Below, piece after piece: positions 2,163 through 27,088 of a DNA stretch of 64,000 nucleotides; the stretch's first letter is position 1; every line of letters starts with the position of its first letter. The stretch is from SAR324 cluster bacterium JCVI-SC AAA005 (GTDB lineage Bacteria > SAR324 > NAC60-12): contig AGAU01000412.1 in the NCBI GenBank assembly GCA_000224765.2, forward strand, positions 2,529 through 66,528, read 5' to 3'. Under the pieces are notes generated by a model, which saw only the letters and a list, made by a program, of their open reading frames with translations, was not told the origin of the DNA and made no database searches. The position numbers and the translations under genes are program-made.

Positions 2163-3161
2163 ATGAGCTTCAGCCACAAATTATTGACCGGACTTGTTAC
2201 TGCTGGACTTGTTCTGGGTAGTAGCCTGATTGCCCTACCAAGCTGGGCTGCTGACAAAGTGAAGCTGCGCATGTCCTGTCCTTGTACAGAGACCGATCTA
2301 CGCAGCCAAGGTCTACAGAATGTATTTGCCGCCAAGGTCAGCAGCTTTGCTGACTATCAGCCACACTACAACGCTACCCTTTTCAAGCAGGGTACTGAAT
2401 TGACGGCAATTGCCCGTGGCAACCTGGAAATGTCAATTACCTCTGCTCAGGAATTGGCCAAGCTGATTCCAGACTGGTCCGTTTTCACTGCTGGCTATCT
2501 GCTACGTGATGCAGACCATCAGCGTAAGGTTTTCACTAGTGATATCGGCAAGGAATTCTTTCAAATGGCTGAGGACAAGCTCGGAGTCAAACTGCTGGGT
2601 GTGATGTATTTTGGCAAGCGCCACTTGAACCTACGCACCGATAAGAAAGTGATGACTCCAGACGACATGGCTGGAGTCAAACTGCGCATGCCTGGAACTG
2701 ATGCCTGGCAATTCCTCGGGAAAGCCTTGGGTGCCAATCCAACCCCGATGGCCTTCACTGAGGTCTACACTGGTCTTCAAACAGGCGCGATTGATGGACA
2801 GGACAATCCACTGCCCACCGACAAGGACAAAAAGTTCTATGAGGTCACCAAGCAGATCATCCTGACTGGTCACCTAGCAGACATGAACTTTCTTGCTCTC
2901 AGCAAAAAAGCTTGGGACGGAATGACCGCTTCCCAACAAGACCAACTGCAGAAGGCTGCTAACGATGCGATGATGGTGATCAGCATCAACGTCGAGTCAC
3001 ACGAAGCCTTGTTGGAAGACTTCTTCCGCAAGGAGGGACTACAAGTCTACACTCCAAACGTGGACGCCTTTCGCAAGCGAGCTCAGGAAATGTATCTGGC
3101 CTCTGACTTCTCCAAGGGATGGCCCAAGGGCGTTGTCGAGCGAGTCAACGCTATTCGCTGA
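2163..3161 (+). CDS. dctP: TRAP transporter substrate-binding protein (DctP family)
   Basis: 332-aa ORF with a signal peptide (LVLGSSLIALPSWAADK) and DctP-like length and sequence. It is directly followed by the small and large TRAP permease genes. Confidence 0.85.
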   Translation: MSFSHKLLTGLVTAGLVLGSSLIALPSWAADKVKLRMSCPCTETDLRSQGLQNVFAAKVSSFADYQPHYNATLFKQGTELTAIARGNLEMSITSAQELAKLIPDWSVFTAGYLLRDADHQRKVFTSDIGKEFFQMAEDKLGVKLLGVMYFGKRHLNLRTDKKVMTPDDMAGVKLRMPGTDAWQFLGKALGANPTPMAFTEVYTGLQTGAIDGQDNPLPTDKDKKFYEVTKQIILTGHLADMNFLALSKKAWDGMTASQQDQLQKAANDAMMVISINVESHEALLEDFFRKEGLQVYTPNVDAFRKRAQEMYLASDFSKGWPKGVVERVNAIR

Positions 3162-3173
3162 TTACTATCTCTC

Positions 3174-3680
3174 GTGCCTTTCTTACGTTGGCTGAAGATT
3201 GGTGCTGACAGCGTGGCCGTCCTCTTTTTGGCGGCCATGTTTTGCAGCTTCATGCTTCAGATCATCTTCCGCTATCTCTTCAATCATCCCCTCAGTTGGA
3301 CTCTGGAAGCCTGTCTGATCACCTGGCTTTGGACAGTTTTCTGGGGTTGTGGCCTACTTTTGCGAGATCAGGATCACGTACGCTTTGACATCCTCTATCT
3401 AGCCGCTCCACACAAATTGCGTCGTTTGATGGCTGGCTTAGCTGCTGTCATCTTCCTGGTTGCCTACGCTGTTTCTCTTCCAGCAACTGCAGATTACATA
3501 GAATTCATGAAGATCGAGAGCAGTTCCTCCCTGAAGATCCGCCTGGACTACATCTTTGGGATTTATCTGCTCTTCGTGCTTGGAGTGCTTGGGCGATACT
3601 TCTGGCGGCTGGTACAAATTATTCGAGATCAGGATTTCGAAACTGGCATCTCTCACTCTGCGGAGCATTACAGTGAGTGA
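3174..3680 (+). CDS. dctQ: TRAP transporter small permease (DctQ family)
   Basis: 168-aa hydrophobic protein with four predicted TM segments, lying between the dctP-like and dctM-like genes. Confidence 0.8.
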   Translation: MPFLRWLKIGADSVAVLFLAAMFCSFMLQIIFRYLFNHPLSWTLEACLITWLWTVFWGCGLLLRDQDHVRFDILYLAAPHKLRRLMAGLAAVIFLVAYAVSLPATADYIEFMKIESSSSLKIRLDYIFGIYLLFVLGVLGRYFWRLVQIIRDQDFETGISHSAEHYSE

Positions 3681-18336: not shown

Positions 18337-18604
18337 TTTGAAACTCCGTGATTTTTGACTTCAATGCATAAAGCGAATCTCGCTTAAGTAAGCCGATAAG
18401 CAGAACATAGTGGCTTTGCCATTCCGTTGTTATCAACCAATTGGTAGTCTTCAGTCAAGCCCTAATCTCTCCTTGAATCCTTAAATCATCGGAAAATCTT
18501 TTTCCAAAAAGAGTCCTAGGTTTCGACTTCCGCTTTGCGGCTAGTTCAGCTAACAATTCGCAGTTCTTTCAAATTTCTTGAAATTAATTTTAGGAGTGCA
18601 AGCC

Positions 18605-19453
18605 ATGAAACTAGTACGCTACGGAGCCAAAGGTAAGGAGTTACCCGGTATTATTGATAATGATGGAAAGCTGCGATCTCTGGCTGGCCTGGTCAACGAG
18701 GAGAGTGAGCAATTTCTCTCAGACAAGGGCCTTGCGGAACTGGGTCGTATGAATCTTAGCAAACTCCCGCTGGTTCCTGGGAAACCTCGGTTTGGTTGTC
18801 CTGTTGCTAACGTCAGCAAATTTGTGGCAATTGGCCTGAACTATACGGATCACGCTAAGGAGACCAACTCTCCAATTCCTAAAGAGCCAATCATATTTAT
18901 GAAAGCTCTAAACTGTCTTCAGGGGCCAAACGATAACGTGATGCTCCCTCGAGGATCGGTCAAGACTGACTGGGAGGTCGAATTGGGGATCGTGATCAGC
19001 AAAAAAACTCGCTATGTCACCAAGGAAAACTCCTTGAATCATGTTGCGGGCTATGTACTGGTCAATGATGTTAGTGAGCGCGAATTTCAGGCGGAGCGTG
19101 GTCCTCAATGGGACAAGGGAAAAGGCTGCGACACCTTCGGTCCAGTTGGCCCCTATCTAGTGACTCGTGATGAGGTAAAAGACCCTCAAAATCTAGAGCT
19201 TTGGCTAGACGTCAACGGCAAGCGGATGCAGACAGGCAACACCAAGACGATGATCTTTCCTGTGAAGGAAATCATCAGCTATGTCAGCGAATTCATGACC
19301 TTGTTTGCCGGTGATATCATCACTACCGGCACGCCTCCTGGAGTTGGTTCTGGCATGAAGCCTCAGGTTTTCCTAAAGGCAGGTGATGTGATGACCCTCG
19401 GCATCAGTGGCTTGGGAGAGCAGCGGCAGACGGTCGTTCCCTTCAAGCTATAG
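18605..19453 (+). CDS. fumarylacetoacetate hydrolase family protein (short, YcgM/2-keto-4-pentenoate hydratase-like)
   Basis: MKLVRYG... start at 18605 preceded by AGGAG. FAH core motifs are present (GLNYTDHA, EVELGIVI, GDIITTGTPPGVG). The track ORF opens 27 nt upstream. Confidence 0.85.
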   Translation: MKLVRYGAKGKELPGIIDNDGKLRSLAGLVNEESEQFLSDKGLAELGRMNLSKLPLVPGKPRFGCPVANVSKFVAIGLNYTDHAKETNSPIPKEPIIFMKALNCLQGPNDNVMLPRGSVKTDWEVELGIVISKKTRYVTKENSLNHVAGYVLVNDVSEREFQAERGPQWDKGKGCDTFGPVGPYLVTRDEVKDPQNLELWLDVNGKRMQTGNTKTMIFPVKEIISYVSEFMTLFAGDIITTGTPPGVGSGMKPQVFLKAGDVMTLGISGLGEQRQTVVPFKL

Positions 19454-19465
19454 GGCTGTCTTTTG

Positions 19466-19502
19466 GGTTGACCAAAACCAAAGAAAACAGTTTTGATCAA
19501 CC
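19466..19502. terminator. candidate bidirectional hairpin between convergent genes
   Basis: ggttgaccaaaac (19466-19478) pairs with gttttgatcaacc (19490-19502), giving 13 bp with one mismatch and an 11-nt loop. There is no clear U-tract, so this is weak. Confidence 0.3.
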
Positions 19503-19609
19503 TGATAGTGATACAGTCTTTGATACATGACTAATGATGATGGCAATTTCAATGCGGGTTGGTTCACATTTATGGGTTAATGACAAAGACTGTGGACTTG
19601 TCAATTAGA

Positions 19610-22600
19610 TTAATAGTTACGCGTCAAACCATTTAACAATTGATTGTAAACACTGTCTTCAAGGATGGTGAGCATCTCTTGACCAATTGCTGTTTCACTG
19701 AGCTTAGTTTTTACGGCTTCAGGCGTACTCGGGAATTCATCATTCCCTGAGGCATGATCCTTAATACCCCGATACTCCACCAACAGGTTCATCAGAAATT
19801 CTATGCTCGCACAAGACGGATCAATACAAGTGCCAGTAATAACACCATTGACTGCCTCAGCATTTTCGGGATGGCGATACCAGGGGTATTCACCAGCCAT
19901 TGCTTCCCAGGTCAATCGTGTAAGAGTGCTCTGGTTCCAATTGCATCCTGCTGAAGTTTCTTCTCTACAACCTGTTGAGCTAGCCGAAAACTGATCTGGA
20001 TAAGCACTTGTGTAGCCGTAGTGATGCCAAAGGTGGATTGCTTCTTCCAGCAATACTTCTTCAACTCCATTTACTCCTGCATCACCCGAAACCGCGGACA
20101 ACCATGAGTGCTTTACGCCCATGTCTTTTCCTAAGTATTCACCCAGGGCACTAATGATTTCTCCTTCCAATGCTTCATTTGAAGAACTCATCATGTTCAT
20201 CCACGTTCCTGTTGAGCGAGTCTGAAGCAAATTGACGACACCAGTGTCATCAAGGTAACCATCTTGGTTATTATCTAAGATTTCAGCAAGCAAATCCGCT
20301 TGTCGTTGTGTCAGTGCCGTTATATCCAATCCAGCAGGAGATGAGTCGTTACTGTTGGCGACCAATACCCCCCCAACTAGTGAACATTTCTGATAGTTGT
20401 ACTGATTAAGAAGATTGACAGCCTCTGTACCAATTTCTTGACTGAGCGAAGAGCAATCCGAAACTACTGGTCGGGTAATTTCATTTCCTGTGCTACCTGC
20501 CAATTCACTGTTAGGCCCTTCTTCGGCAGACTGGCTGGAGTCACCGTCAGAATCGCTGGTTGAGTCAGTTAATCCAGCCACTGGACTCAATTCTGTCAAC
20601 ACACTGTTACCACTAGCATCTTCACCGTACATGACATATTGGAAAGTGACAGGTTCACCAAATTCATCCGCCAACTCTAGTTGTTCTAGCGTGAACTCTG
20701 GCTCTTGAGTCACCTCAACTACTTCGCTTATTTCAAACCACTCTCCACCAGTTTCAAGATCATTTAAGTTAAAAGCGTAGGTGAAAAATTGAATCTTATC
20801 CTTGGGCTTTAAAATTTTTGTTGTTTTATCGATTAGGATATATCCTTCTTCGTCATTATCATCCCTGAACTGTAGTTTGTAGGTTTGGATGCCATATTGG
20901 GTGACCGCACTGTTCTCATCAACTACCAATCGGAGCAACGCGTAGTCAGCAGGAAAATTATAACCCAATGCTTCATAGTTCTTTTCTGAGTCATAGTAAT
21001 CAATCTCCCCAACATATACACTATAAGTCTGCCTATCTTCTTGGTACTGATCTTCAAAGTAGAGGGGCATGAAGATTGATTCATCAGTATTCACTTTGAT
21101 AGTATACCAGCGCTGGTCCCACTCTGGAGTGAAGTATTGGCCTTCTACCTGAGTCGGATAAGCATTTAGTTCTGCAATTACAGACAAGTAGGTGCCTTCT
21201 TCGTATTCTTCTGCAATCCCATAGATAGTTCTCACCAAGCTGAGATTGGGGTCTTGAAAAGTTGCCAAGGCTCCTGCTGTTGCTCCACCCACACAACTTC
21301 TGGCGTTCCGGTCAGTTTTCACCTTAACCGTATTGCGCCGATCACCAATTAAAAAGGGTAGGTACCGTAATGCCCGTTTACTTCTTTCTGTTGAGAGTTC
21401 ATCCTCACAAAGTATAGATGAGTCTTCTTGTGCCGTTGACTCCTCTTCTGAAGCAGTATCTTCAGCACCTGCCCAACTAGTGTCCCATTCTTCATCCCAT
21501 TCTTCATTAAAACTTACATTGGCAGCACTAGTGTCTGTTACATAATTTATCACTGTGGGCGCTGTTGTATCGGAAGATTTAGCTATACTGTAAGCTTGGG
21601 CAAATTTGACCCAGTTTTCACTAACTCGCAGCGAATTGTAGTAATCTGTCAGCGCTGTAATTGGCTTTACTGCATTTTCGGGAGCGTCGATAGCAACTCC
21701 CCATGAGTTAGGACGAGTACCGTCTTCTTTGCTGTAGACAACATAATTATCAATCGCAGCAATCAACGATTCTAAGCTGCTCTTTTGATCATCCTCAGTC
21801 ACTCTCTGCTTAGTCAGATGACTCATATGCTTCAAATCAACAGAGGAGCGGGTACCAGATTGGGCTGATTTCCCGTATGCTTGAGTTTTTGATGTACTAT
21901 TGTTTAAAGCGCCAATGACTGCTTGATCACTTACCTGAAGTTTGCCAGTTAGATTAACCAGCACAGAATCTAATTGGGAGACCACTTCATCGTACTTATT
22001 CAAGTCAACCAGGGAGAGTGTTTTCCCAGAGTCTTCATAAGGATGGGAACCTTTGGCAACAAAGTTATCGATTATATTTTTTGCCGCAGCGGTGGCATTG
22101 TCTGCTGCACCGTAAGATTCTAGGACATTTTTCCAATTCCAGCCATGACCAGGTTCTAGTTCTTCAGAAGCCAGCAGAAAATTAGCTTTGCCTTTAACAG
22201 CTTTAGCCACTTCCAGAGTAGCCATCAAGCAAGAGTCGAAGCCAATCACATCGTAAGTTTGATTGGCCGTAGCTAGTGAATCCTCAATTTCTTTGAGTTG
22301 CAAAGGATCACCATTAAAATTTTGATCGTTTCCAAAACCTTCAAGGTTGGCACCGTGGTCCCAGAACACAAGCATTCTCTGATCAAAATCGGTGTATGCG
22401 TCTAGAAAGCTGAGAAACAACTTCAATGAACTGGCGTCACCCATGTGAGCGTCAGGAGCTACATATAAATATTCGTCTGATGGCTCGTTGCTAAAGGCAC
22501 CGTCCGAAGAGTCTTTTCGAATCTGCTCCAGATTGGCAAACCACATTCCTTTCCAATTGGACGCTCTTCCAAAGGCAACTACTACTTCTAAATTATTTAA

Positions 22601-22876
22601 TTCTGCACCTGTGGCTGCCACCATTTCCTTGAGGTCAGTAGTACCGTAACCATTGTTCCCTTCTAAATCACTGCCCACCATATAAACTGCGAGTAATTTT
22701 TTACCTTCACCATCTACCTCTGATGGAACTAGCGGAGCAAGTGTGCCTGCACTGGATGAGTGCCCTAACTTGCCAGCTCTGGGCTGAACTGTAACTGTAT
22801 TGGGCTTAGTAGCTTTTGTTCCTGATTCACTACTGCTATCACCTCCACTACAGCCTGATAAAATTAGTAGTAGCAA
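19610..22876 (-). CDS. large surface lipoprotein with N-terminal clostripain-like (peptidase C11) cysteine protease domain and an unassigned C-terminal module
   Basis: 1088-aa ORF. The C11 His/Cys dyad context is VFWDHGANLEGFG and IGFDSCLMATLEVA, followed by ASEELEPGHGW. Lipobox is LILSGC. The reading frame stays open upstream to 22921 (DIQIPKKIQLLFGLS), so the real start is probably non-canonical (ATA at 22910-22912 or 22916-22918). Confidence 0.8.
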   Translation of the reverse strand: MLLLILSGCSGGDSSSESGTKATKPNTVTVQPRAGKLGHSSSAGTLAPLVPSEVDGEGKKLLAVYMVGSDLEGNNGYGTTDLKEMVAATGAELNNLEVVVAFGRASNWKGMWFANLEQIRKDSSDGAFSNEPSDEYLYVAPDAHMGDASSLKLFLSFLDAYTDFDQRMLVFWDHGANLEGFGNDQNFNGDPLQLKEIEDSLATANQTYDVIGFDSCLMATLEVAKAVKGKANFLLASEELEPGHGWNWKNVLESYGAADNATAAAKNIIDNFVAKGSHPYEDSGKTLSLVDLNKYDEVVSQLDSVLVNLTGKLQVSDQAVIGALNNSTSKTQAYGKSAQSGTRSSVDLKHMSHLTKQRVTEDDQKSSLESLIAAIDNYVVYSKEDGTRPNSWGVAIDAPENAVKPITALTDYYNSLRVSENWVKFAQAYSIAKSSDTTAPTVINYVTDTSAANVSFNEEWDEEWDTSWAGAEDTASEEESTAQEDSSILCEDELSTERSKRALRYLPFLIGDRRNTVKVKTDRNARSCVGGATAGALATFQDPNLSLVRTIYGIAEEYEEGTYLSVIAELNAYPTQVEGQYFTPEWDQRWYTIKVNTDESIFMPLYFEDQYQEDRQTYSVYVGEIDYYDSEKNYEALGYNFPADYALLRLVVDENSAVTQYGIQTYKLQFRDDNDEEGYILIDKTTKILKPKDKIQFFTYAFNLNDLETGGEWFEISEVVEVTQEPEFTLEQLELADEFGEPVTFQYVMYGEDASGNSVLTELSPVAGLTDSTSDSDGDSSQSAEEGPNSELAGSTGNEITRPVVSDCSSLSQEIGTEAVNLLNQYNYQKCSLVGGVLVANSNDSSPAGLDITALTQRQADLLAEILDNNQDGYLDDTGVVNLLQTRSTGTWMNMMSSSNEALEGEIISALGEYLGKDMGVKHSWLSAVSGDAGVNGVEEVLLEEAIHLWHHYGYTSAYPDQFSASSTGCREETSAGCNWNQSTLTRLTWEAMAGEYPWYRHPENAEAVNGVITGTCIDPSCASIEFLMNLLVEYRGIKDHASGNDEFPSTPEAVKTKLSETAIGQEMLTILEDSVYNQLLNGLTRNY

Positions 22877-22940
22877 AGAAAGACCGAAGAGTAATTGAAT
22901 TTTTTTCGGTATTTGTATGTCTTACTTCAGATGAATATTA

Positions 22941-23066
22941 ACTAAAAATAACTAAAAATAACTAAAAATAACTAAAAATAACTGAAAATAACTGAAAATA
23001 ACTAAAAATAACTAAAAATAACTGAAAATAACTGAAAATAACTGAAAATAACTAAAAATAACTAAT
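22941..23066. repeat. tandem 10-bp A-tract repeat array (ACTRAAAATA x12 plus a partial unit)
   Basis: Counted directly: 12 perfect head-to-tail 10-bp units at 22941-23060 in two variants (A or G at position 4, order AAAAGGAAGGGA), then a partial unit. The array lies between the stop of gene 23052-24020 and the start of gene 19610-22876. Confidence 0.92.
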
Positions 23067-24020
23067 ATCACTTAGAGTAATAGATCGAAAACCATAATTT
23101 GCGATAGGCATTTTACTTGTTGGGAATGCGTATTCGGAATTATTAATTAAATCGTATATGGTTGGATCTTGCTCCTGCAGTTTTAATTTTGTGTGTGGAC
23201 ACCACTCAGTTTGAGCTTTCTGGCGTCCAGCTTCGGAAGCATGCATGCCAAAATTAGAACTGACTGCCCAGTAGATGTATTCCGTGATCATAGTTGCATA
23301 GTCAGCAGTATTGTCCTCGTAAAAATACCATGCCTCATCTGAGCCACCTACCTTACCCGCATTCGCACAGTCAGAGTTGTTGTAAATCCAAGCACCATTT
23401 GTGAGCTGAGTTTGTCGGCCACCTCTGGCAACATCCATTGCCTTCGCAAGTAATGATGTTGATTCATTAGATTCACCAAATATTTCAAGATATACTTTAG
23501 AGTATCCAAATTGAGTAATTAAATGAAATATTTCTTCTATACTGGCATCATGTTGATCTGCTGACTCATAGTTGACAGTTGTTTCGAAAGCACCAAGTCC
23601 TGTGCTGCTACTATCTAGTCCTAGTTTTTCCAGGGGCTCCATTAATATTTCTGATTCATCTAAATTATACATTGAAACAAAAGCTTCTAACTCATTTATC
23701 TTTTTTACGACACAAGTATTGTCAACTTCTCCATTTTCGTTATTGTCAATGAGTTCTGCCATAACATTGGCGGCATGTATCAATTTATCTTCACTAACTC
23801 CAGTTGTTGCTAAAATATTTATACCAAAAACGCTTATCCCTTTAGTGAGTCCAGATGATTTCGCAGTAGACAATGACAGCGTGTTACCTGATGTAAAATT
23901 CACATTCGAAACAGGAACACTATTATAACTGCAACTTGTGGAAACAACTCCAATATTTTCATCGTTACTATTTTCTCCCAAATCACTATCATTTAAAGTA
24001 ATTGTAGAATTATCTTCCAC
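23052..24020 (-). CDS. lipoprotein paralogous to the C-terminal module of the neighbouring C11 protein
   Basis: 322-aa ORF that aligns by eye with aa ~850-1088 of the 1088-aa protein (AELIDNNENGEVDNTCVV vs AEILDNNQDGYLDDTGVV; IEEIFHLITQFGY vs LEEAIHLWHHYGY). The frame is open upstream to 24119 and encodes IKKNKILYFYSILLLILSSCSGRDSS, a lipoprotein leader starting at ATT 24117-24119. Confidence 0.7.
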   Translation of the reverse strand: MEDNSTITLNDSDLGENSNDENIGVVSTSCSYNSVPVSNVNFTSGNTLSLSTAKSSGLTKGISVFGINILATTGVSEDKLIHAANVMAELIDNNENGEVDNTCVVKKINELEAFVSMYNLDESEILMEPLEKLGLDSSSTGLGAFETTVNYESADQHDASIEEIFHLITQFGYSKVYLEIFGESNESTSLLAKAMDVARGGRQTQLTNGAWIYNNSDCANAGKVGGSDEAWYFYEDNTADYATMITEYIYWAVSSNFGMHASEAGRQKAQTEWCPHTKLKLQEQDPTIYDLINNSEYAFPTSKMPIANYGFRSITLSDISYF

Positions 24021-24234
24021 AGTATTATTGTCATTATTAATTGAACTATCTCTTCCACTACAACTTGATAGAATCAGTAATAATATAGAGTAAAAATATA
24101 GTATTTTATTTTTTTTAATATGTCACCAATAGGTTAATTAAATTAGGGTTATATTCTCTTTATTTTATGAAATAAATTTTTTACTTTACTGAATTTATTT
24201 TTTTCAATCTATTCCCCTAGCTACTCACTGGTCC

Positions 24235-24774
24235 TCAACGAATAAACTGCTCAACATATTCTTCTCCTAAGCCAACTTTAATATAGTGTTCGCGACACTT
24301 GGCGATCCGGGTGAAGACGTCGTCAAATCCCGTGCTGTTTCCATCAGGGTCACAGTAAATCATTGCTCCATTGACCTGAAAGAGAGTAATCATCTCATCC
24401 ACATCTGGATCGACCACTAGTGTGTGCGTTTCTCCAGGCGCCTCGTAGACATAACCTCCTTCTTCCGCAACCCAGTCGTGTTCCAGGTAACGCCAACGGC
24501 CTTTCAGCACATAACCATGAACTGGTTGAGGATGACGATGGCGGGAAAGCACACCCGCCTTGCGAACACGCAGAAGGTTCATCCAGTAGCCTTGGGCCGC
24601 AGATAAACAGAGTGGTCTGAACCAAACGTTCTCTTCCAAAGGAACCCAAACCTTCTCATCACTTGGAATCACGCTTGAAATCACTAACTCAGGTGGAGAT
24701 TCCTTGGGCATTGGGTGTCGATAAGGTTGCCATTTTTCAGAAACAAGGGGATTTCTTTTTGTCATCACTATCAC
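24235..24774 (-). CDS. cupin-fold protein, 2,4'-dihydroxyacetophenone dioxygenase-like
   Basis: 179-aa ORF. The pattern LRVRKAGVLSRHRHPQPVHGYVLKGRWRYLEHDW...YEAPGETHTL matches the cupin metal motifs of this family. Confidence 0.75.
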   Translation of the reverse strand: MIVMTKRNPLVSEKWQPYRHPMPKESPPELVISSVIPSDEKVWVPLEENVWFRPLCLSAAQGYWMNLLRVRKAGVLSRHRHPQPVHGYVLKGRWRYLEHDWVAEEGGYVYEAPGETHTLVVDPDVDEMITLFQVNGAMIYCDPDGNSTGFDDVFTRIAKCREHYIKVGLGEEYVEQFIR

Positions 24775-24791: not shown

Positions 24792-25516
24792 TCAGGTAAT
24801 CAGATAGCCACCGTCCACAGGCAGCACTACTCCAGTAACAAAGCGAGCTGCGTCACTGGCCAAAAACAAGACCGGCCCTGCGATGTCTTCTGGCTCTCCC
24901 CAGCGACCCAATGGTGTCCGCGAGAGGATGGCTTCTGAGCGCTGAGAATCGTCTTGCAGAGCCTGGGTGAACTGTGTGGTGATCCAACCGGGAGCCACTG
25001 CATTGGCTCGGATTCCATCAGGTGCATACGCAATTGCCAAGCTCTTAGTCAATTGAGCAATTCCTCCTTTGCTCGCGCTATATCCTGGTACCAAGCCCCC
25101 ACCAAAAAACTGAGCATCGATGCAGTGTTGATAATGCAACCATTGCGTTGCTTCAGCTTCTCTCGAGCCGCAGTACAAAATCTCATGCTACCATTGAGGT
25201 TGATATCAATCACGTCTGCAAAAACCTCTGGCTCATGCTCCGCGTTACGGCGAATCACTCCGGCACAATTGACTAGTACATCTAATGAATCAATCTCATC
25301 AATACAGGCTTGAACAGCACTCCCATCCCGCACATCCAATTCCTGAAAGCTGATTTCATTTGATCCTGACTGAGCCTGAGCACGTTCCACCTCCTCCTTG
25401 GTTGCCCCTGTTGCAATTACTAGATCTCCGTTTGCCACAAATAATTGGGCAATTGCAGCTCCGATCCCACTGCTGCCTCCAGTCACTAAAACCTTTCGCT
25501 TGCTACAATGACTCAT
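24792..25516 (-). pseudogene. short-chain dehydrogenase/reductase with a 1-nt frameshift in a homopolymer
   Basis: The N-terminal ORF (VLVTGGSSGIGAAIA ... IINTASMLSF) and the C-terminal ORF (FFGGGLVPGYSASKGGIAQLTKSLA...) are one SDR split at the A6 run at 25104-25109 (T6 on the coding strand). One extra T restores SMLSFFGGGLVPGYSASK. Confidence 0.75.
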
Positions 25517-25642: not shown

Positions 25643-25852
25643 TCAGGACTTCAGCACACGTAGTAAGGCTCTCCTACGAGCTAGGACACTCTTGCTCAGC
25701 GCAGCTTCAGGAGCAAACACTTCAGAGGCATGATAGGCGCCAGGATACACATGAAGTTAAGTTGGAACACCGGCCTGGATCAATCGAGCTGCAAACTGAA
25801 TGTCCTCATCCCGAAAGAGATCCAGTTCGCCAACATCAATGAAGGTTGAATG
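25643..25852 (-). pseudogene. C-terminal remnant of an alpha/beta-hydrolase fold-3 esterase/lipase with an in-frame TAA
   Basis: My translation reads [66 protein letters not shown]. This is the typical C-terminus of the Abhydrolase_3 family (D and H of the triad). TAA is at 25757-25759 and there is no N-terminal part. Confidence 0.6.
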
Positions 25853-27088
25853 AAGTGGGTGATATAGTCCAATCGATTTGTGCAGACTCCTGATGAAAGA
25901 CCAAAAGCCGTTCCATTTGCCACCTGAATTGCTTCGTCAATGTCCTGAATCCGAATGATGGGAATCACAGGCCCAAAGGTTTCCTGCTTAACTAGTTCAC
26001 AGTCCCAAGGGACATGATCAACAACCGTGGGAGGGAATACCGCTCCCTGACGATTGTTTCCGTACAACAACTTGGCACCTGTGGCGACTGCGTCTTCCAC
26101 TCGACGCTGAAACAAAATGGCTGACTGCTCGTTGATCACGGTTCCCACATCCGTCTGTGGATTCATTGGGTCGCCGTATTTGAGCTTCTTGGCTTTCTCG
26201 GTTACCAGCTTCACAAAGTCATTGGCAATCGAATCAATCACCAAGATTCTTTTCACCGCTGTACAACGCTGCCCTGAATTTTTGGTAGCTCCCTCGAAAG
26301 CGAGGGTCGCTGCACGGTCTAAGTCAGCATCTTCCATAACGATCAGGGGAGAGTTGCCACCCAGTTCTAATACGATTCGGCGATAACCGGCCTTCTCAGC
26401 AATCATTTTCCCGACTCGAACACTGCCGGTGAATGTGACTAGATCAATGAGTGGGTTACAGATTATCTCATCGCCAATGTCTTCAGGTCTCCCGGTGACC
26501 ACCTGGAACATTGCTGGGGGCAGATCGGCTTCGTAGAGTACATCGGCCAGTAGCAGTGCAGTCAGGGGAGTCAGTTCTGTCGGTTTGCATACCATTCGAT
26601 TGTTGGTGGCAATGCTGGGCGCAATCTTGTGGGCCACCATGTTCAACGGATGGTTGAAGGGGGTGATAGCACTTCACCCCCTTCAGTGGCTCTTGCTGGG
26701 TGAAGATTTTTCGCTTCTGACCACGTGGTGTCAGGTCACATGAGAAGATCTGGCCATCATCTAGGATGCAGAGTTGGCTTGCGAGACTAAAGACATCGAA
26801 GGCGCACCCCACTTCGTACAGGGAATCTTTCTTTGAAAGTCCCGCCTCTGCTGTAATCAGGTCTGAAATTTCATCCCGCCGTGCTACCAACAAATGCGCT
26901 GTCTTGGTCAAAATTTGCTGACGCTCATAGCGAGTCAACTTGGGTTTAAATTCCTTGGCAATCTGTAGCGCCTGCTGAACCTGCCCCCGAGAAGCACGGG
27001 GAACCGTGCCCACGACTTCATTGTTGTAAGGATTGAAAACTTCTAACGATCCAGCATCACCTGAAATCTTCTGGCCACCGATGCGCAT
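25780..27088 (-). pseudogene. phnY: phosphonoacetaldehyde dehydrogenase (PhnY-type ALDH), frameshifted and 3'-truncated
   Basis: The N-terminal ORF ends ...IFTQQEPLKGV and the second frame continues [25 protein letters not shown]...GQRCTAVKR. The shift lies within 26671-26680. After ...[19 protein letters not shown] the ALDH sequence stops and the hydrolase remnant sequence begins, so the last ~60 aa of an ALDH are missing. Confidence 0.75.

What the first reader, a model, noticed from the sequence alone, without database searches (positions are those of the whole stretch)
19454..24234. Paired surface lipoproteins: a C11 protease fused to an unassigned Ca-loop module, plus a free-standing copy of that module
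Two co-oriented, AT-richer genes sit between unrelated metabolic genes. The 1088-aa protein has a clostripain-type catalytic context (WDHG / FDSCLM / ASEELEPGHGW), a long middle region, an acidic linker (EEWDEEWDTSWAGAEDTASEEE) and a ~290-aa C-terminal module. The 322-aa neighbour is essentially that module alone. Shared landmarks are AE[IL][LI]DNN[QE][DN]G..D[DN]T.VV (a DxNxDG calcium-loop-like motif), EE.[IF]HL....GY, and a W[YF].... block. Their leaders are near-identical (LLLILSGCSGGDSS vs LLLILSSCSGRDSS). I cannot place the module in a known family. The protease-fused plus free arrangement could reflect a shared ligand or substrate-recognition domain, or a protease with a cognate decoy or inhibitor.
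Basis: partly seen in the sequence, partly recalled or inferred. Interest (0 to 1): 0.65.

Follow-up and report, generated by a model that had tools for sequence, protein, structure and literature searches.

The report
C11 protease plus unannotated Ca-loop domain
Two neighbouring surface-lipoprotein genes of a marine SAR324-type bacterium, one of them a clostripain-type protease, each carry a distant version of a widespread, still unnamed protein domain that many bacteria attach to secreted enzymes; they are not a protease/inhibitor pair, and in this genome both genes have lost their normal start codon.

Summary
Two minus-strand lipoprotein genes sit between Cupin_7 and FAA-hydrolase genes. 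The large one (19610-22918, 1102 codons) has a Peptidase_C11 domain with its His/Cys dyad. Its last ~270 residues are homologous to the small protein (23052-24119, 355 codons): BLASTP E 2e-7, hhalign 98.7%, E 3.6e-16.

The two modules are not recent copies. They share about 20% identity and belong to two subfamilies. The fused one is closest to stand-alone proteins of gammaproteobacterial and Campylobacterota MAGs.

The family is large (2018 clusters at 50% identity). It has no Pfam, NCBIfam or PDB match. AlphaFold models are confident (pLDDT ~92), but fold matches are only weak. All 74 members checked keep a DxDxDGxxD loop and an [EQ]ExxH helix. Most high-scoring members are stand-alone. Others are fused to S8, trypsin, TAP-like and C11 peptidases, or to other hydrolases.

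Related genomes carry either gene alone, or the protease with a different C-terminal domain. That argues against a cognate inhibitor or decoy.

I read the module as an autonomous Ca-loop domain, catalytic or ligand-binding, recruited as an accessory to secreted hydrolases.

In this window both ATG starts are mutated (ATT, ATA), and a 10-bp repeat has expanded between the genes.

The parts
23052..24119 (-). Small lipoprotein gene (355 codons plus stop). It consists of a signal peptide, a low-complexity linker and one subfamily-A module. The start position reads ATT here and ATG in all relatives examined.
   Evidence: homologues; dN/dS 0.12-0.20
24060..24119 (-). Lipoprotein signal peptide of the small protein (IKKNKILYFYSILLLILSS|C, lipobox LSSC, Cys20).
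   Evidence: sequence and regex; orthologues start MNKNKIL
23055..23867 (-). Subfamily-A module core (aa 85-355). Landmarks: VFGINIL, HAANVMAE, the DxDxDG loop IDNNENGEVDN (23718-23750), EEIFH (23523-23537), AMDVARGG, AWYFYED, TEYIYWA, TEW.
   Evidence: alignments A1 and A2; AF2 pLDDT 92.5; coordinates
22939..23065 (.). 10-bp tandem repeat, 12.7 copies (TTATTTT[T/C]AG on the gene strand). It starts at the small gene's stop codon and fills the intergenic space. Relatives have about 2 units and a gap of 22-33 nt.
19610..22918 (-). Large lipoprotein gene (1102 codons plus stop): signal peptide, C11 peptidase, acidic linker, conserved middle domain, Ser/Asp linker, subfamily-B module. The start position reads ATA here and ATG in relatives.
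   Evidence: dN/dS 0.14-0.28
22850..22918 (-). Lipoprotein signal peptide of the large protein (IQIPKKIQLLFGLSLLLLILSG|C, lipobox LSGC, Cys23).
   Evidence: P0121 starts MQIPKKIQ
21725..22687 (-). Peptidase_C11 domain (aa 78-398). Catalytic His in WDHG (22352-22363). Catalytic Cys and S1 Asp in FDSCLM (22223-22240). Lys209 (LQLK|E) lies in the loop between them.
   Evidence: Pfam E 3.1e-47; alignment to 6n9j, 3uws and 4yec; PmC11 features from PMC4850288
21440..21505 (-). Acidic Trp-rich linker EEWDEEWDTSWAGAEDTASEEE. It contains a 12-nt tandem duplication.
20519..21331 (-). Middle domain (approximately aa 530-800). It is shared with the ~800-aa C11 homologues that cover about 64-70% of the query. 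No Pfam or PDB match.
20414..20575 (-). Ser/Asp-rich linker between the middle domain and the module. Relatives switch to a different C-terminal domain at this point.
19613..20413 (-). Subfamily-B module (aa 836-1102). Landmarks: LDNNQDGYLDD (20246-20278), GKDMGVK, EEAIH (20033-20047), PWYRH, IEFLMN, and six family-conserved Cys.
   Evidence: AF2 pLDDT 91.6
19150..20786 (.). Stretch that is 98-99% identical to relative L001, while the rest of the gene is 78-91% identical. This is a recent recombination tract. It runs from inside the middle domain, through the module, into the FAA-hydrolase gene.

Best explanation
This is a variable surface-protein locus of a SAR324-type bacterium. It encodes two outer-surface or periplasmic lipoproteins.

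- Gene 1 is a stand-alone member (subfamily A) of a large, unannotated extracellular domain family of about 250 aa.
- Gene 2 is a clostripain-family (C11) cysteine endopeptidase with an Asp in the S1 position, which in solved relatives goes with Arg/Lys specificity. It has the conserved middle domain of its C11 clade. Its variable C-terminal 'accessory slot' here holds a divergent member (subfamily B) of the same domain family.

The module is an autonomous folding unit. It has an EF-hand-like helix/DxDxDG-loop/helix element, probably a structural Ca2+ site. A long helix carries an invariant [EQ]ExxH, and a later helix carries an invariant Glu.

My preferred reading is that the module forms a metal-assisted active or ligand site: a hydrolase-like pocket, possibly a degenerate zincin with Glu replacing the first His. 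On this reading it acts on the same extracellular material as the enzymes it is fused to, so the C11 lipoprotein gains a second activity or an address tag.

The two genes are neighbours through domain accretion and recombination at this locus. They are not neighbours because one controls the other.

Shown here: the architecture, the homology, the family size, the fusion partners, the locus variants and purifying selection.

Inferred: Ca2+ binding, metal-site chemistry, catalysis versus binding, the substrate, and any cooperation between the A and B modules.

The confidence of 0.55 applies to the overall picture (architecture, accessory-module role, no inhibitor relationship). The specific 'hydrolase-like' reading of the module is about 0.5 within that picture.
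For: - Architecture and homology.
- Family size: 2018 representatives at E<=1e-3 and 1270 at E<=1e-10. 97 of the 150 best-scoring representatives are 450 aa or shorter, i.e. stand-alone.
- No curated family or solved relative.
- Two independent AF2 models with pLDDT 92.5 and 91.6. In both, the acidic loop lies between two helices and ExxH lies on a long helix.
- DxDxDGxxD and [EQ]ExxH are present in 74 of 74 members checked.
- There are 37 invariant columns, including H, D, EE..H, D..R, E and EW, among 22 members at 31-84% identity to the query.
- Fusion partners are secreted hydrolases of several classes: S8 (2), trypsin (2), TAP-like alpha/beta hydrolase (2), C11, Exo_endo_phos and FGase. 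Others are BNR, PD40 and EF-hand/RTX.
- The same C11 clade carries other C-terminal appendages: domain X, MORN, PPC, SLH, CAP and beta-lactamase-like.
- The fused module's closest relatives are proteins without a C11 domain in other phyla, at 38-55% identity.
- Locus variants exist with either gene alone.
- dN/dS is 0.12-0.28.
- For the A model, weak Foldseek hits point to gluzincins: M9 collagenase at E 0.015, and PPEP-2 at probability 0.80 with TM 0.55 normalised on the target. BFVD gives M1-like hits and hits of enhancin size.
Against: - No fold match is significant: none has E<=0.001. The zincin lead is not reproduced with the subfamily-B model, where the best hit has E 0.28 and all probabilities are <=0.11.
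- HExxH is absent.
- Subfamily B lacks several subfamily-A invariants (the equivalents of H115, D191, D229 and R232). A shared catalytic mechanism is therefore not assured.
- The partners include non-peptidases. In this C11 clade the same slot often holds binding or anchoring modules (SLH, PPC, MORN). Both points fit a non-catalytic targeting role equally well.
- Neighbourhoods of stand-alone members give no functional hint.
- In this window both genes lack a canonical start codon, so this particular copy may not be expressed at all.
Confidence: 0.55

Rival explanations
1. The module is a non-catalytic targeting or ligand-binding domain, like a Ca-dependent carbohydrate- or surface-binding module. 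It tethers secreted hydrolases, and as a stand-alone lipoprotein a binding function, to a common polymer or to the cell surface.
For: - It usually sits C-terminal in fusions with unrelated hydrolases.
- The same slot in related C11 proteins holds SLH, PPC and MORN modules.
- Many invariant aromatic residues: Y246, W264, Y267, Y281, Y283, W284, W306.
- Subfamily B lacks several polar invariants of subfamily A.
- It has a Ca-type loop.
Against: - Charged residues (EE..H, D, D..R, E) are unusually invariant for a binding module.
- About two thirds of the best-scoring members are stand-alone proteins with nothing to tether.
- There are weak gluzincin-like fold hits.
Confidence: 0.33
2. One reading: the small protein is a cognate decoy, inhibitor or immunity-like partner of the C11 protease, recognised through the shared module.
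For: - The two genes are adjacent and co-oriented, with a gap of only 22-33 nt in relatives.
- Their leaders are homologous.
- The same A + C11::B pair occurs in at least 7 contigs or MAGs.
Against: - L009 keeps the small gene with no C11 gene at the same locus.
- L014 keeps the C11 gene with the small gene deleted.
- L015 pairs the small gene with a C11 that lacks the module.
- The family is mostly stand-alone and spans several phyla.
- The small protein keeps enzyme-like invariant residues.
Confidence: 0.05
3. The A and B modules work as a pair, as a hetero-dimer or in sequential steps. The locus couples an A lipoprotein to a B module, and the C11 fusion is a later elaboration.
For: - SAR324 NIOZ-UU44 (L023) has a stand-alone B lipoprotein immediately followed by a stand-alone A-type protein. 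There is no C11 gene and the locus is different.
- The window lineage has A followed by C11::B.
Against: - This rests on only two independent adjacencies, both in SAR324.
- B occurs without a nearby A in the Hahellaceae (L007) and Gammaproteobacteria (L024) loci.
- A occurs alone or as A-A tandems elsewhere.
- L015 pairs A with a C11 that has no B.
Confidence: 0.12
4. In this particular genome the two genes are dead or silenced remnants, or the lesions are sequencing artefacts. In that case nothing functional is encoded here. This concerns the state of this copy and is compatible with any of the functional readings above.
For: - ATG is changed to ATT and to ATA at the two starts, with in-frame stops two codons upstream.
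- The 10-bp repeat has expanded between the genes.
- The adjacent SDR gene is frameshifted in a T homopolymer. The aldehyde dehydrogenase gene is split. An esterase gene of about 980 nt is missing.
Against: - Both reading frames are intact over 355 and 1102 codons.
- dN/dS against the closest relative is 0.12 and 0.28.
- ATT and ATA can initiate translation at a low level (own knowledge: infC, pcnB).
- A homopolymer indel suggests read errors.
Confidence: 0.4

Closest known systems
Clostripain family, MEROPS C11 (PmC11 3uws/4yec, 6n9j, clostripain 9cip, 5dyn)
   Same: - The Pfam C11 match is far above the gathering score.
- The His (WDHG) and Cys (FDSC) dyad and the Asp two residues before the Cys align with the solved enzymes.
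- It is a lipoprotein or secreted protein, like the gut Bacteroidales C11 enzymes.
   Different: - It is about three times longer than PmC11.
- It has an extra conserved middle domain and an unannotated C-terminal module.
- It scores only 30 bits against the clostripain equivalog model, whose cut-off is 550 bits.
- Autoprocessing and Ca2+ dependence are unknown.
Gluzincin metallopeptidases (M9 collagenase peptidase domain 4ar8/4ar9/4arf; PPEP-2 6fpc, M34)
   Same: - These are the best, though weak, Foldseek hits for the subfamily-A model.
- The module has a long helix with an acidic-acidic-x-x-His motif, followed by helices that carry invariant Asp and Glu.
- Both are extracellular and associated with Ca.
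   Different: - There is no HExxH. The first His is a Glu (EExxH), or a Gln in some subfamily-B members.
- E-values are 0.015-0.14 and TM scores normalised on the query are about 0.3.
- The hits are not reproduced with the subfamily-B model.
- There is no sequence-level match.
DxDxDG / EF-hand-like calcium loops
   Same: The D-x-[DN]-x-[DN]-G-x-x-D motif is invariant in 74 of 74 members. It lies between two predicted helices.
   Different: It fails the canonical EF-hand pattern PS00018 in 0 of 74 members, because there is no acidic residue at loop position 12. Ca2+ binding has not been tested.
C-terminal accessory modules of secreted bacterial proteases (PPC, PKD/Big, SLH, MORN)
   Same: - The module occupies the same C-terminal slot on S8, S1, S33-like and C11 enzymes.
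- The slot is swappable within one C11 clade.
   Different: - It is much larger, at about 250 aa.
- It has an alpha/beta fold with enzyme-like invariant charged residues.
- It occurs mostly as a stand-alone protein.

Membership tests
Peptidase family C11 (clostripain family) | Sequence match to the family profile above the curated threshold | tested here: met
   PF03415: E 3.1e-47, 162 bits against a 25.8-bit cut-off.
Peptidase family C11 (clostripain family) | Catalytic His/Cys dyad in the conserved H-G and D-x-C contexts | tested here: met
   VFWDHG aligns to VFWSHG, and FDSCLM aligns to FDACYM, of 6n9j and 3uws. The dyad is His133/Cys179 in PmC11.
Peptidase family C11 (clostripain family) | Acidic S1 residue (Asp two residues before the Cys) that gives Arg/Lys specificity | tested here: met
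   The Asp in FDSC corresponds to PmC11 Asp177. The specificity itself is inferred.
Peptidase family C11 (clostripain family) | Activating auto-cleavage in the loop between the His and the Cys | not testable with these tools
   Lys209 (LQLK|E) lies in that loop. Cleavage needs biochemistry.
Clostripain proper (TIGR02806 equivalog) | Score above the equivalog cut-off | tested here: not met
   30 bits against a cut-off of 550 bits.
Bacterial lipoprotein (SPase II substrate) | Basic n-region, hydrophobic h-region and a lipobox [LVI][ASTVI][GAS]C | tested here: met
   KK...LLLLILSG|C and KKNK...LLLILSS|C match a regex. SignalP and LipoP were not available.
Bacterial lipoprotein (SPase II substrate) | A usable start codon upstream of the signal peptide | tested here: not met
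   The window has ATT and ATA, with in-frame stops two codons upstream. All relatives compared have ATG (L001-L003 and L019).
One domain family for both modules | Significant homology across the whole module | tested here: met
   hhalign 98.7%, E 3.6e-16, 216 columns. BLASTP E 2e-7.
Zincin / gluzincin metallopeptidases | HExxH zinc-binding motif | tested here: not met
   The motif is [EQ]ExxH in 74 of 74 members.
Zincin / gluzincin metallopeptidases | Significant fold similarity to a zincin catalytic domain | tested here: inconclusive
   A model: 4ar8 at E 0.015 with TMq 0.32, and 6fpc at probability 0.80 with TMt 0.55. B model: no zincin among the hits.
EF-hand | Canonical 12-residue loop (PROSITE PS00018) | tested here: not met
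   0 of 74 members match. DxDxDGxxD is present in 74 of 74.
Cognate protease/inhibitor (or decoy) gene pair | The two genes co-occur obligatorily | tested here: not met
   L009 has the small gene only. L014 has the C11 gene only. L015 has a C11 without the module.
Any curated domain family for the module (Pfam-A 2025, NCBIfam 20.0, PDB sequences) | A match at or near the curated threshold | tested here: not met
   No consistent hit for 60 subfamily-A and 14 subfamily-B members.

The most novel reading that the evidence does not exclude
The module family is a new class of extracellular metal-dependent hydrolase, a zincin-like scaffold with Glu replacing the first His (EExxH). It is widespread in marine bacteria and is repeatedly welded to serine and cysteine peptidases to make bifunctional degradative enzymes. 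In SAR324, A- and B-type modules may cooperate as a pair.
Probability: 0.2. Interest if true: 0.7.

Novelty: new variant of a known kind. Interest (0 to 1): 0.45.

Why it matters
SAR324 and marine Flavobacteriaceae are abundant degraders of oceanic organic matter, and their secreted hydrolases shape carbon and nitrogen turnover. This analysis delimits a domain family with these properties:
- at least 2000 sequence clusters;
- confident structure predictions;
- enzyme-like invariant residues;
- no entry in Pfam or NCBIfam and no solved relative;
- fusion to four mechanistic classes of peptidase and to other hydrolases.

Defining its activity would annotate thousands of 'hypothetical' marine proteins. 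It would also explain a recurrent design of secreted enzymes. The locus is also a clear small example of domain swapping and leader-mediated recombination in surface-protein genes.

Tried and rejected
1. Pfam, NCBIfam and PDB sequence searches of the module gave nothing. This includes member-by-member scans at E<=10. The weak hits were low-complexity noise from acidic linkers. Faint VanX / D-Ala-D-Ala-dipeptidase hits (E 0.097; 2 of 60 members at E 0.014) are within chance expectation.
2. The zincin assignment is suggested by Foldseek hits of the A model. The hits are not significant, and they are not reproduced by the B model. I kept it only as a lead.
3. 'The module is a recently exchanged cassette'. 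The low dS of the module (0.046) turned out to be part of an ordinary recombination tract (~20786-19150). The tract starts inside the middle domain and extends into the next gene. It is not bounded by the domain.
4. Gene-neighbourhood inference for stand-alone members gave no conserved partners in Flavobacteriaceae-type contigs or in Hahellaceae. P0063 was not on record.
5. 'Recent duplication of the neighbour' is rejected. The two modules share only 19-28% identity, and the fused module is closer to proteins of other phyla.
6. A literature search for EExxH found only ZIP8/ZIP14 transporters. Searches on SAR324 peptidase lipoproteins found nothing relevant.
7. Domain X, the alternative C-terminal domain, has no Pfam or PDB match.

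Full report
**1. What is in the sequence**

Two co-oriented minus-strand ORFs lie between a Cupin_7 gene (24235-24774) and a convergent FAA-hydrolase gene (18578-19453).

Orthologues show the real products are longer. The small protein is 355 aa and starts MNKNKIL.... The large protein is 1102-1103 aa and starts MQIPKK... or MKIPKK.... The extra residues supply the basic n-region of a typical lipoprotein signal peptide, ending in LILSS|C and LILSG|C.

In this window the two start positions read ATT (24119) and ATA (22918). An in-frame stop lies two codons upstream of each. Relatives L001-L003 and L019 have ATG at both positions.

GC content is 0.352 for the small gene and 0.436 for the large gene. 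The window average is 0.448 and the immediate flanks are about 0.48-0.52.

**2. The protease**

- Pfam Peptidase_C11 matches aa 78-398 at E 3.1e-47.
- phmmer against PDB finds only C11 structures: 6n9j, 3uws/4yec (PmC11), 9cip (clostripain) and 5dyn.
- The alignments place VFWDHG on VFWSHG, and FDSCLM on FDACYM. These carry the catalytic His, the catalytic Cys, and the Asp two residues before the Cys.
- In PmC11 those residues are His133, Cys179 and the S1 residue Asp177, and activation needs cleavage at Lys147 in the loop between them (PMC4850288).
- The window protein has Lys209 (LQLK|E) in the equivalent loop. Whether it is cleaved there is inference.
- It is not clostripain proper: 30 bits against a cut-off of 550 bits.

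About 120 of the listed homologues share the C11 domain. Many also share a middle domain, covering roughly 64-70% of the query. Only P0121 (98% identity) and P0122 (90% identity) cover the full length.

**3. The two modules are homologous but distant**

| Comparison | Result |
|---|---|
| BLASTP, C-terminal 316 aa vs small protein | E 2e-7, 28% identity over 112 aa |
| Profile of small-protein homologues vs large protein | 39.9 bits, aa 871-978 |
| hhalign, single sequence vs profile | 96.7%, E 3.9e-10 |
| hhalign, profile vs profile | 98.7%, E 3.6e-16, 216 columns |

The profile-profile alignment runs from the first beta-strands to the C-terminus.

Identity is only about 20%. A search with the fused module finds 14 relatives at 38-55% identity. 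They come from Hahellaceae, Campylobacterota and Gammaproteobacteria MAGs, are 266-514 aa long, and none carries a C11 domain (alignment A6). I call these subfamily B, and the small protein's group subfamily A.

The fused module was therefore recruited from a B-type gene. It was not duplicated from the neighbour.

**4. The module family**

- The small protein has 140 homologues in the word-indexed search. They include SAR324, Flavobacteriaceae and Carboxylicivirga, and essentially none has a Pfam domain.
- An exhaustive profile search finds 2018 cluster representatives at E<=1e-3, 1270 at E<=1e-10 and 538 at E<=1e-30.
- Of the best 150, 97 are 450 aa or shorter, so they are stand-alone.
- Invariant positions among 22 diverse A members include H115, D125/N126/G130/D133, D191, E195/E196/H199, M228/D229/R232/G233, W264/Y267/D269, E280/Y281/W284 and E305/W306.
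- Subfamily B keeps the acidic loop, ExxH, GY..YP, a Trp and the Glu of (T/I)E(Y/F). It lacks the equivalents of H115, D191, D229 and R232, and it has six conserved Cys.
- All 74 members checked contain DxDxDGxxD and [EQ]ExxH. None fits the canonical EF-hand pattern.
- No Pfam, NCBIfam or PDB sequence match exists, even in member-by-member scans at permissive thresholds.

**5. Structure**

AF2 models are confident for both modules:
- Small protein, aa 60-355: pLDDT 92.5, pTM 0.92.
- Fused module: pLDDT 91.6, pTM 0.90.

Both are alpha/beta. Each has a beta-hairpin, then a helix, then the acidic loop, then a helix. This makes an EF-hand-like helix-loop-helix. Further beta-alpha units follow, then a long helix that carries ExxH.

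Foldseek against PDB gives nothing with E<=0.001. For the A model, the top hits are:
- gluzincin peptidase domains of collagenase T and H (E 0.015-0.14, TM about 0.3);
- PPEP-2 (probability 0.80, TM 0.55 normalised on the target).

BFVD adds an M1-like aminopeptidase and several baculovirus or entomopoxvirus ORFs of 815-937 aa, all weak. For the B model no zincin appears, and all probabilities are <=0.11.

The zincin resemblance is therefore a lead, not a finding. On the evidence available, the fold has no solved relative.

**6. Domain partners**

I scanned 48 longer family members against Pfam.

| Partner | Members |
|---|---|
| Peptidase_S8 + Big_5 | P0279, P0296 |
| Trypsin | P0244, P0310 |
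| TAP-like alpha/beta hydrolase | P0262, P0067 |
| Exo_endo_phos | P0354 |
| FGase | P0376 |
| BNR_2 | P0314 |
| PD40 propeller | P0247, P0277, P0335 |
| EF-hand/RTX | P0246, P0245 |
| TPR + 3-keto-disaccharide hydrolase | P0347 |
| YHYH | P0369 |
| DUF4377 | P0326 |
| InlB-type repeats | P0254 |

Most of the rest have no recognisable partner. Some proteins carry two modules.

Within the C11 clade, the C-terminal slot holds other things in other members:
- an unassigned 'domain X' in P0123, which also follows an A module in P0062;
- MORN repeats in P0155;
- PPC, SLH, CAP or beta-lactamase-like domains.

The module therefore behaves as a mobile accessory unit on secreted hydrolases. It is nonetheless mostly a protein in its own right.

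**7. The locus is variable, which bears on the 'pair' idea**

| Loci | Arrangement |
|---|---|
| L001-L003, L019, L020, L022 | Cupin_7, small (A), C11::B, FAA hydrolase, with a 22-33 nt gap |
| L015 | small, then C11::domain X, same flanks |
| L014 | Cupin_7, then a chimeric gene; small-gene body gone |
| L009 | Cupin_7, small, a 234-nt AT-rich spacer, FAA hydrolase; no trace of C11 |

In L014 the chimeric gene has the small gene's 5'UTR and leader, which switch into the C11 body at a short shared stretch.

The leaders of the two genes are homologous. In L017 they are 74% identical over 86 nt, and in the window about 80% identical around the lipobox. This homology is a plausible substrate for such recombination.

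Each gene thus persists without the other, which argues against an obligate protease/inhibitor or decoy relationship.

Conversely, SAR324 NIOZ-UU44 (L023) has a stand-alone B lipoprotein directly followed by a stand-alone A-type protein. This is at an unrelated locus and there is no C11 gene. A-B adjacency has therefore arisen, or been kept, twice. That is a hint that the two subfamilies cooperate. Against it, B occurs alone in two other phyla, and A occurs alone or as A-A tandems next to an SLT gene.

**8. Selection and recombination**

- dN/dS against L001 and L003 is 0.18-0.20 for the small gene and 0.14 for the large gene.
- Against the closest relative, L019, it is 0.12 and 0.28.
- The module region shows dS of only 0.046 against L001, compared with 0.35-0.88 for the rest of the gene.
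- Mismatch mapping shows a tract that is 98-99% identical from about 20786 to 19150. It begins inside the middle domain and continues into the FAA-hydrolase gene.
- This is an ordinary recombination tract, not a domain cassette.

**9. State of this particular copy**

Several lesions cluster here:
- Both start codons are lost.
- A 10-bp unit at the small gene's stop codon has expanded to 12.7 copies (22939-23065). L019 has about two copies.
- The neighbouring SDR gene is frameshifted by a 1-nt deletion in a T7 run at 25109.
- The aldehyde dehydrogenase gene is split. It is also split in L009.
- About 980 nt that encode an esterase in L019 are missing.

Five consecutive genes therefore carry lesions. 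This could be real decay of the region, low-level initiation from ATT and ATA, or sequencing and assembly error. I cannot tell which. The reading frames themselves are intact.

**10. Interpretation**

Best supported: a C11 Arg/Lys-type endopeptidase lipoprotein whose variable C-terminal slot holds a B-type member of a large unannotated Ca-loop/ExxH domain family, next to a stand-alone A-type member. Domain accretion and recombination at a plastic surface-protein locus brought them together.

For the module itself I put the odds as follows:
- About 0.5 that it is a metal-assisted hydrolase-like domain, possibly a degenerate zincin.
- About 0.33 that it is a non-catalytic binding or targeting module.
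- The remainder on other roles.

The protease/inhibitor reading is unlikely (about 0.05).

Novelty: the C11 part is a new member of a known family. The module is an undescribed family. Overall this is a new variant of a known kind, a multidomain secreted protease with an accessory domain. It is of moderate interest, mainly as a lead for family annotation.

Noticed in passing
window 24117-24119 and 22916-22918 (minus strand): Both lipoprotein genes have a non-canonical codon (ATT, ATA) where relatives L001-L003 and L019 have ATG. An in-frame stop lies two codons upstream of each. The small gene's GGAG, present upstream of the ATG in L001, reads GGTG here.
   Followed up: yes
window 22939-23065: A 10-bp tandem repeat (12.7 copies) starts at the small gene's stop codon. 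The closest relative, L019, has about 2 units. The expansion widens the intergenic gap from 22-33 nt to about 130 nt.
   Followed up: yes
window 24792-25516: A short-chain dehydrogenase gene is split into two ORFs by a 1-nt deletion in a T homopolymer at 25109 (T6 here, T7 in L019).
   Followed up: yes
window 25780-27088; L009 2966-4405: An aldehyde dehydrogenase gene is split into two overlapping ORFs and is truncated at its C-terminus. The orthologue in L009 is also split (91 + 378 aa), so this may be a real, shared pseudogene.
   Followed up: partly
window ~25848/25849; L019 344-1324: About 980 nt present in L019 are absent from the window. In L019, L009 and L016 this stretch encodes a COesterase/Abhydrolase_3 gene between the aldehyde dehydrogenase and SDR genes.
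   Followed up: partly
window 19150-20786 vs L001: A recombination tract that is 98-99% identical, embedded in sequence that is 78-91% identical. It crosses the end of the C11 gene and enters the FAA-hydrolase gene.
   Followed up: yes
L014 1-480 vs L016 3296-3775 and L017 1180-1480: In one relative the small gene's 5'UTR and leader are fused directly to the C11 gene body, and the small gene is deleted. This looks like recombination between the two homologous leaders.
   Followed up: yes
P0123 C-terminus (L015 ~2950-3506); P0062 C-terminus; L014 2644-3198: A second unassigned domain of about 185 aa ('domain X', motif VLxDVPGS...GVHSW) replaces the module on some C11 orthologues. It also follows an A-type module in P0062. 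It has no Pfam or PDB match.
   Followed up: partly
L010 7001-9196; L011-L013 5819-8173: Other SAR324 lineages carry two tandem A-type module genes next to a TPR-SLT lytic transglycosylase gene and an alanine racemase gene.
   Followed up: partly
L023 1149-3110: SAR324 NIOZ-UU44 has a stand-alone B-type lipoprotein immediately followed by a stand-alone A-type protein. There is no C11 gene, and the locus is unrelated to the window's.
   Followed up: partly
window 21483-21507: A 12-nt tandem duplication encodes the EEWDEEWD part of the acidic linker.
   Followed up: no
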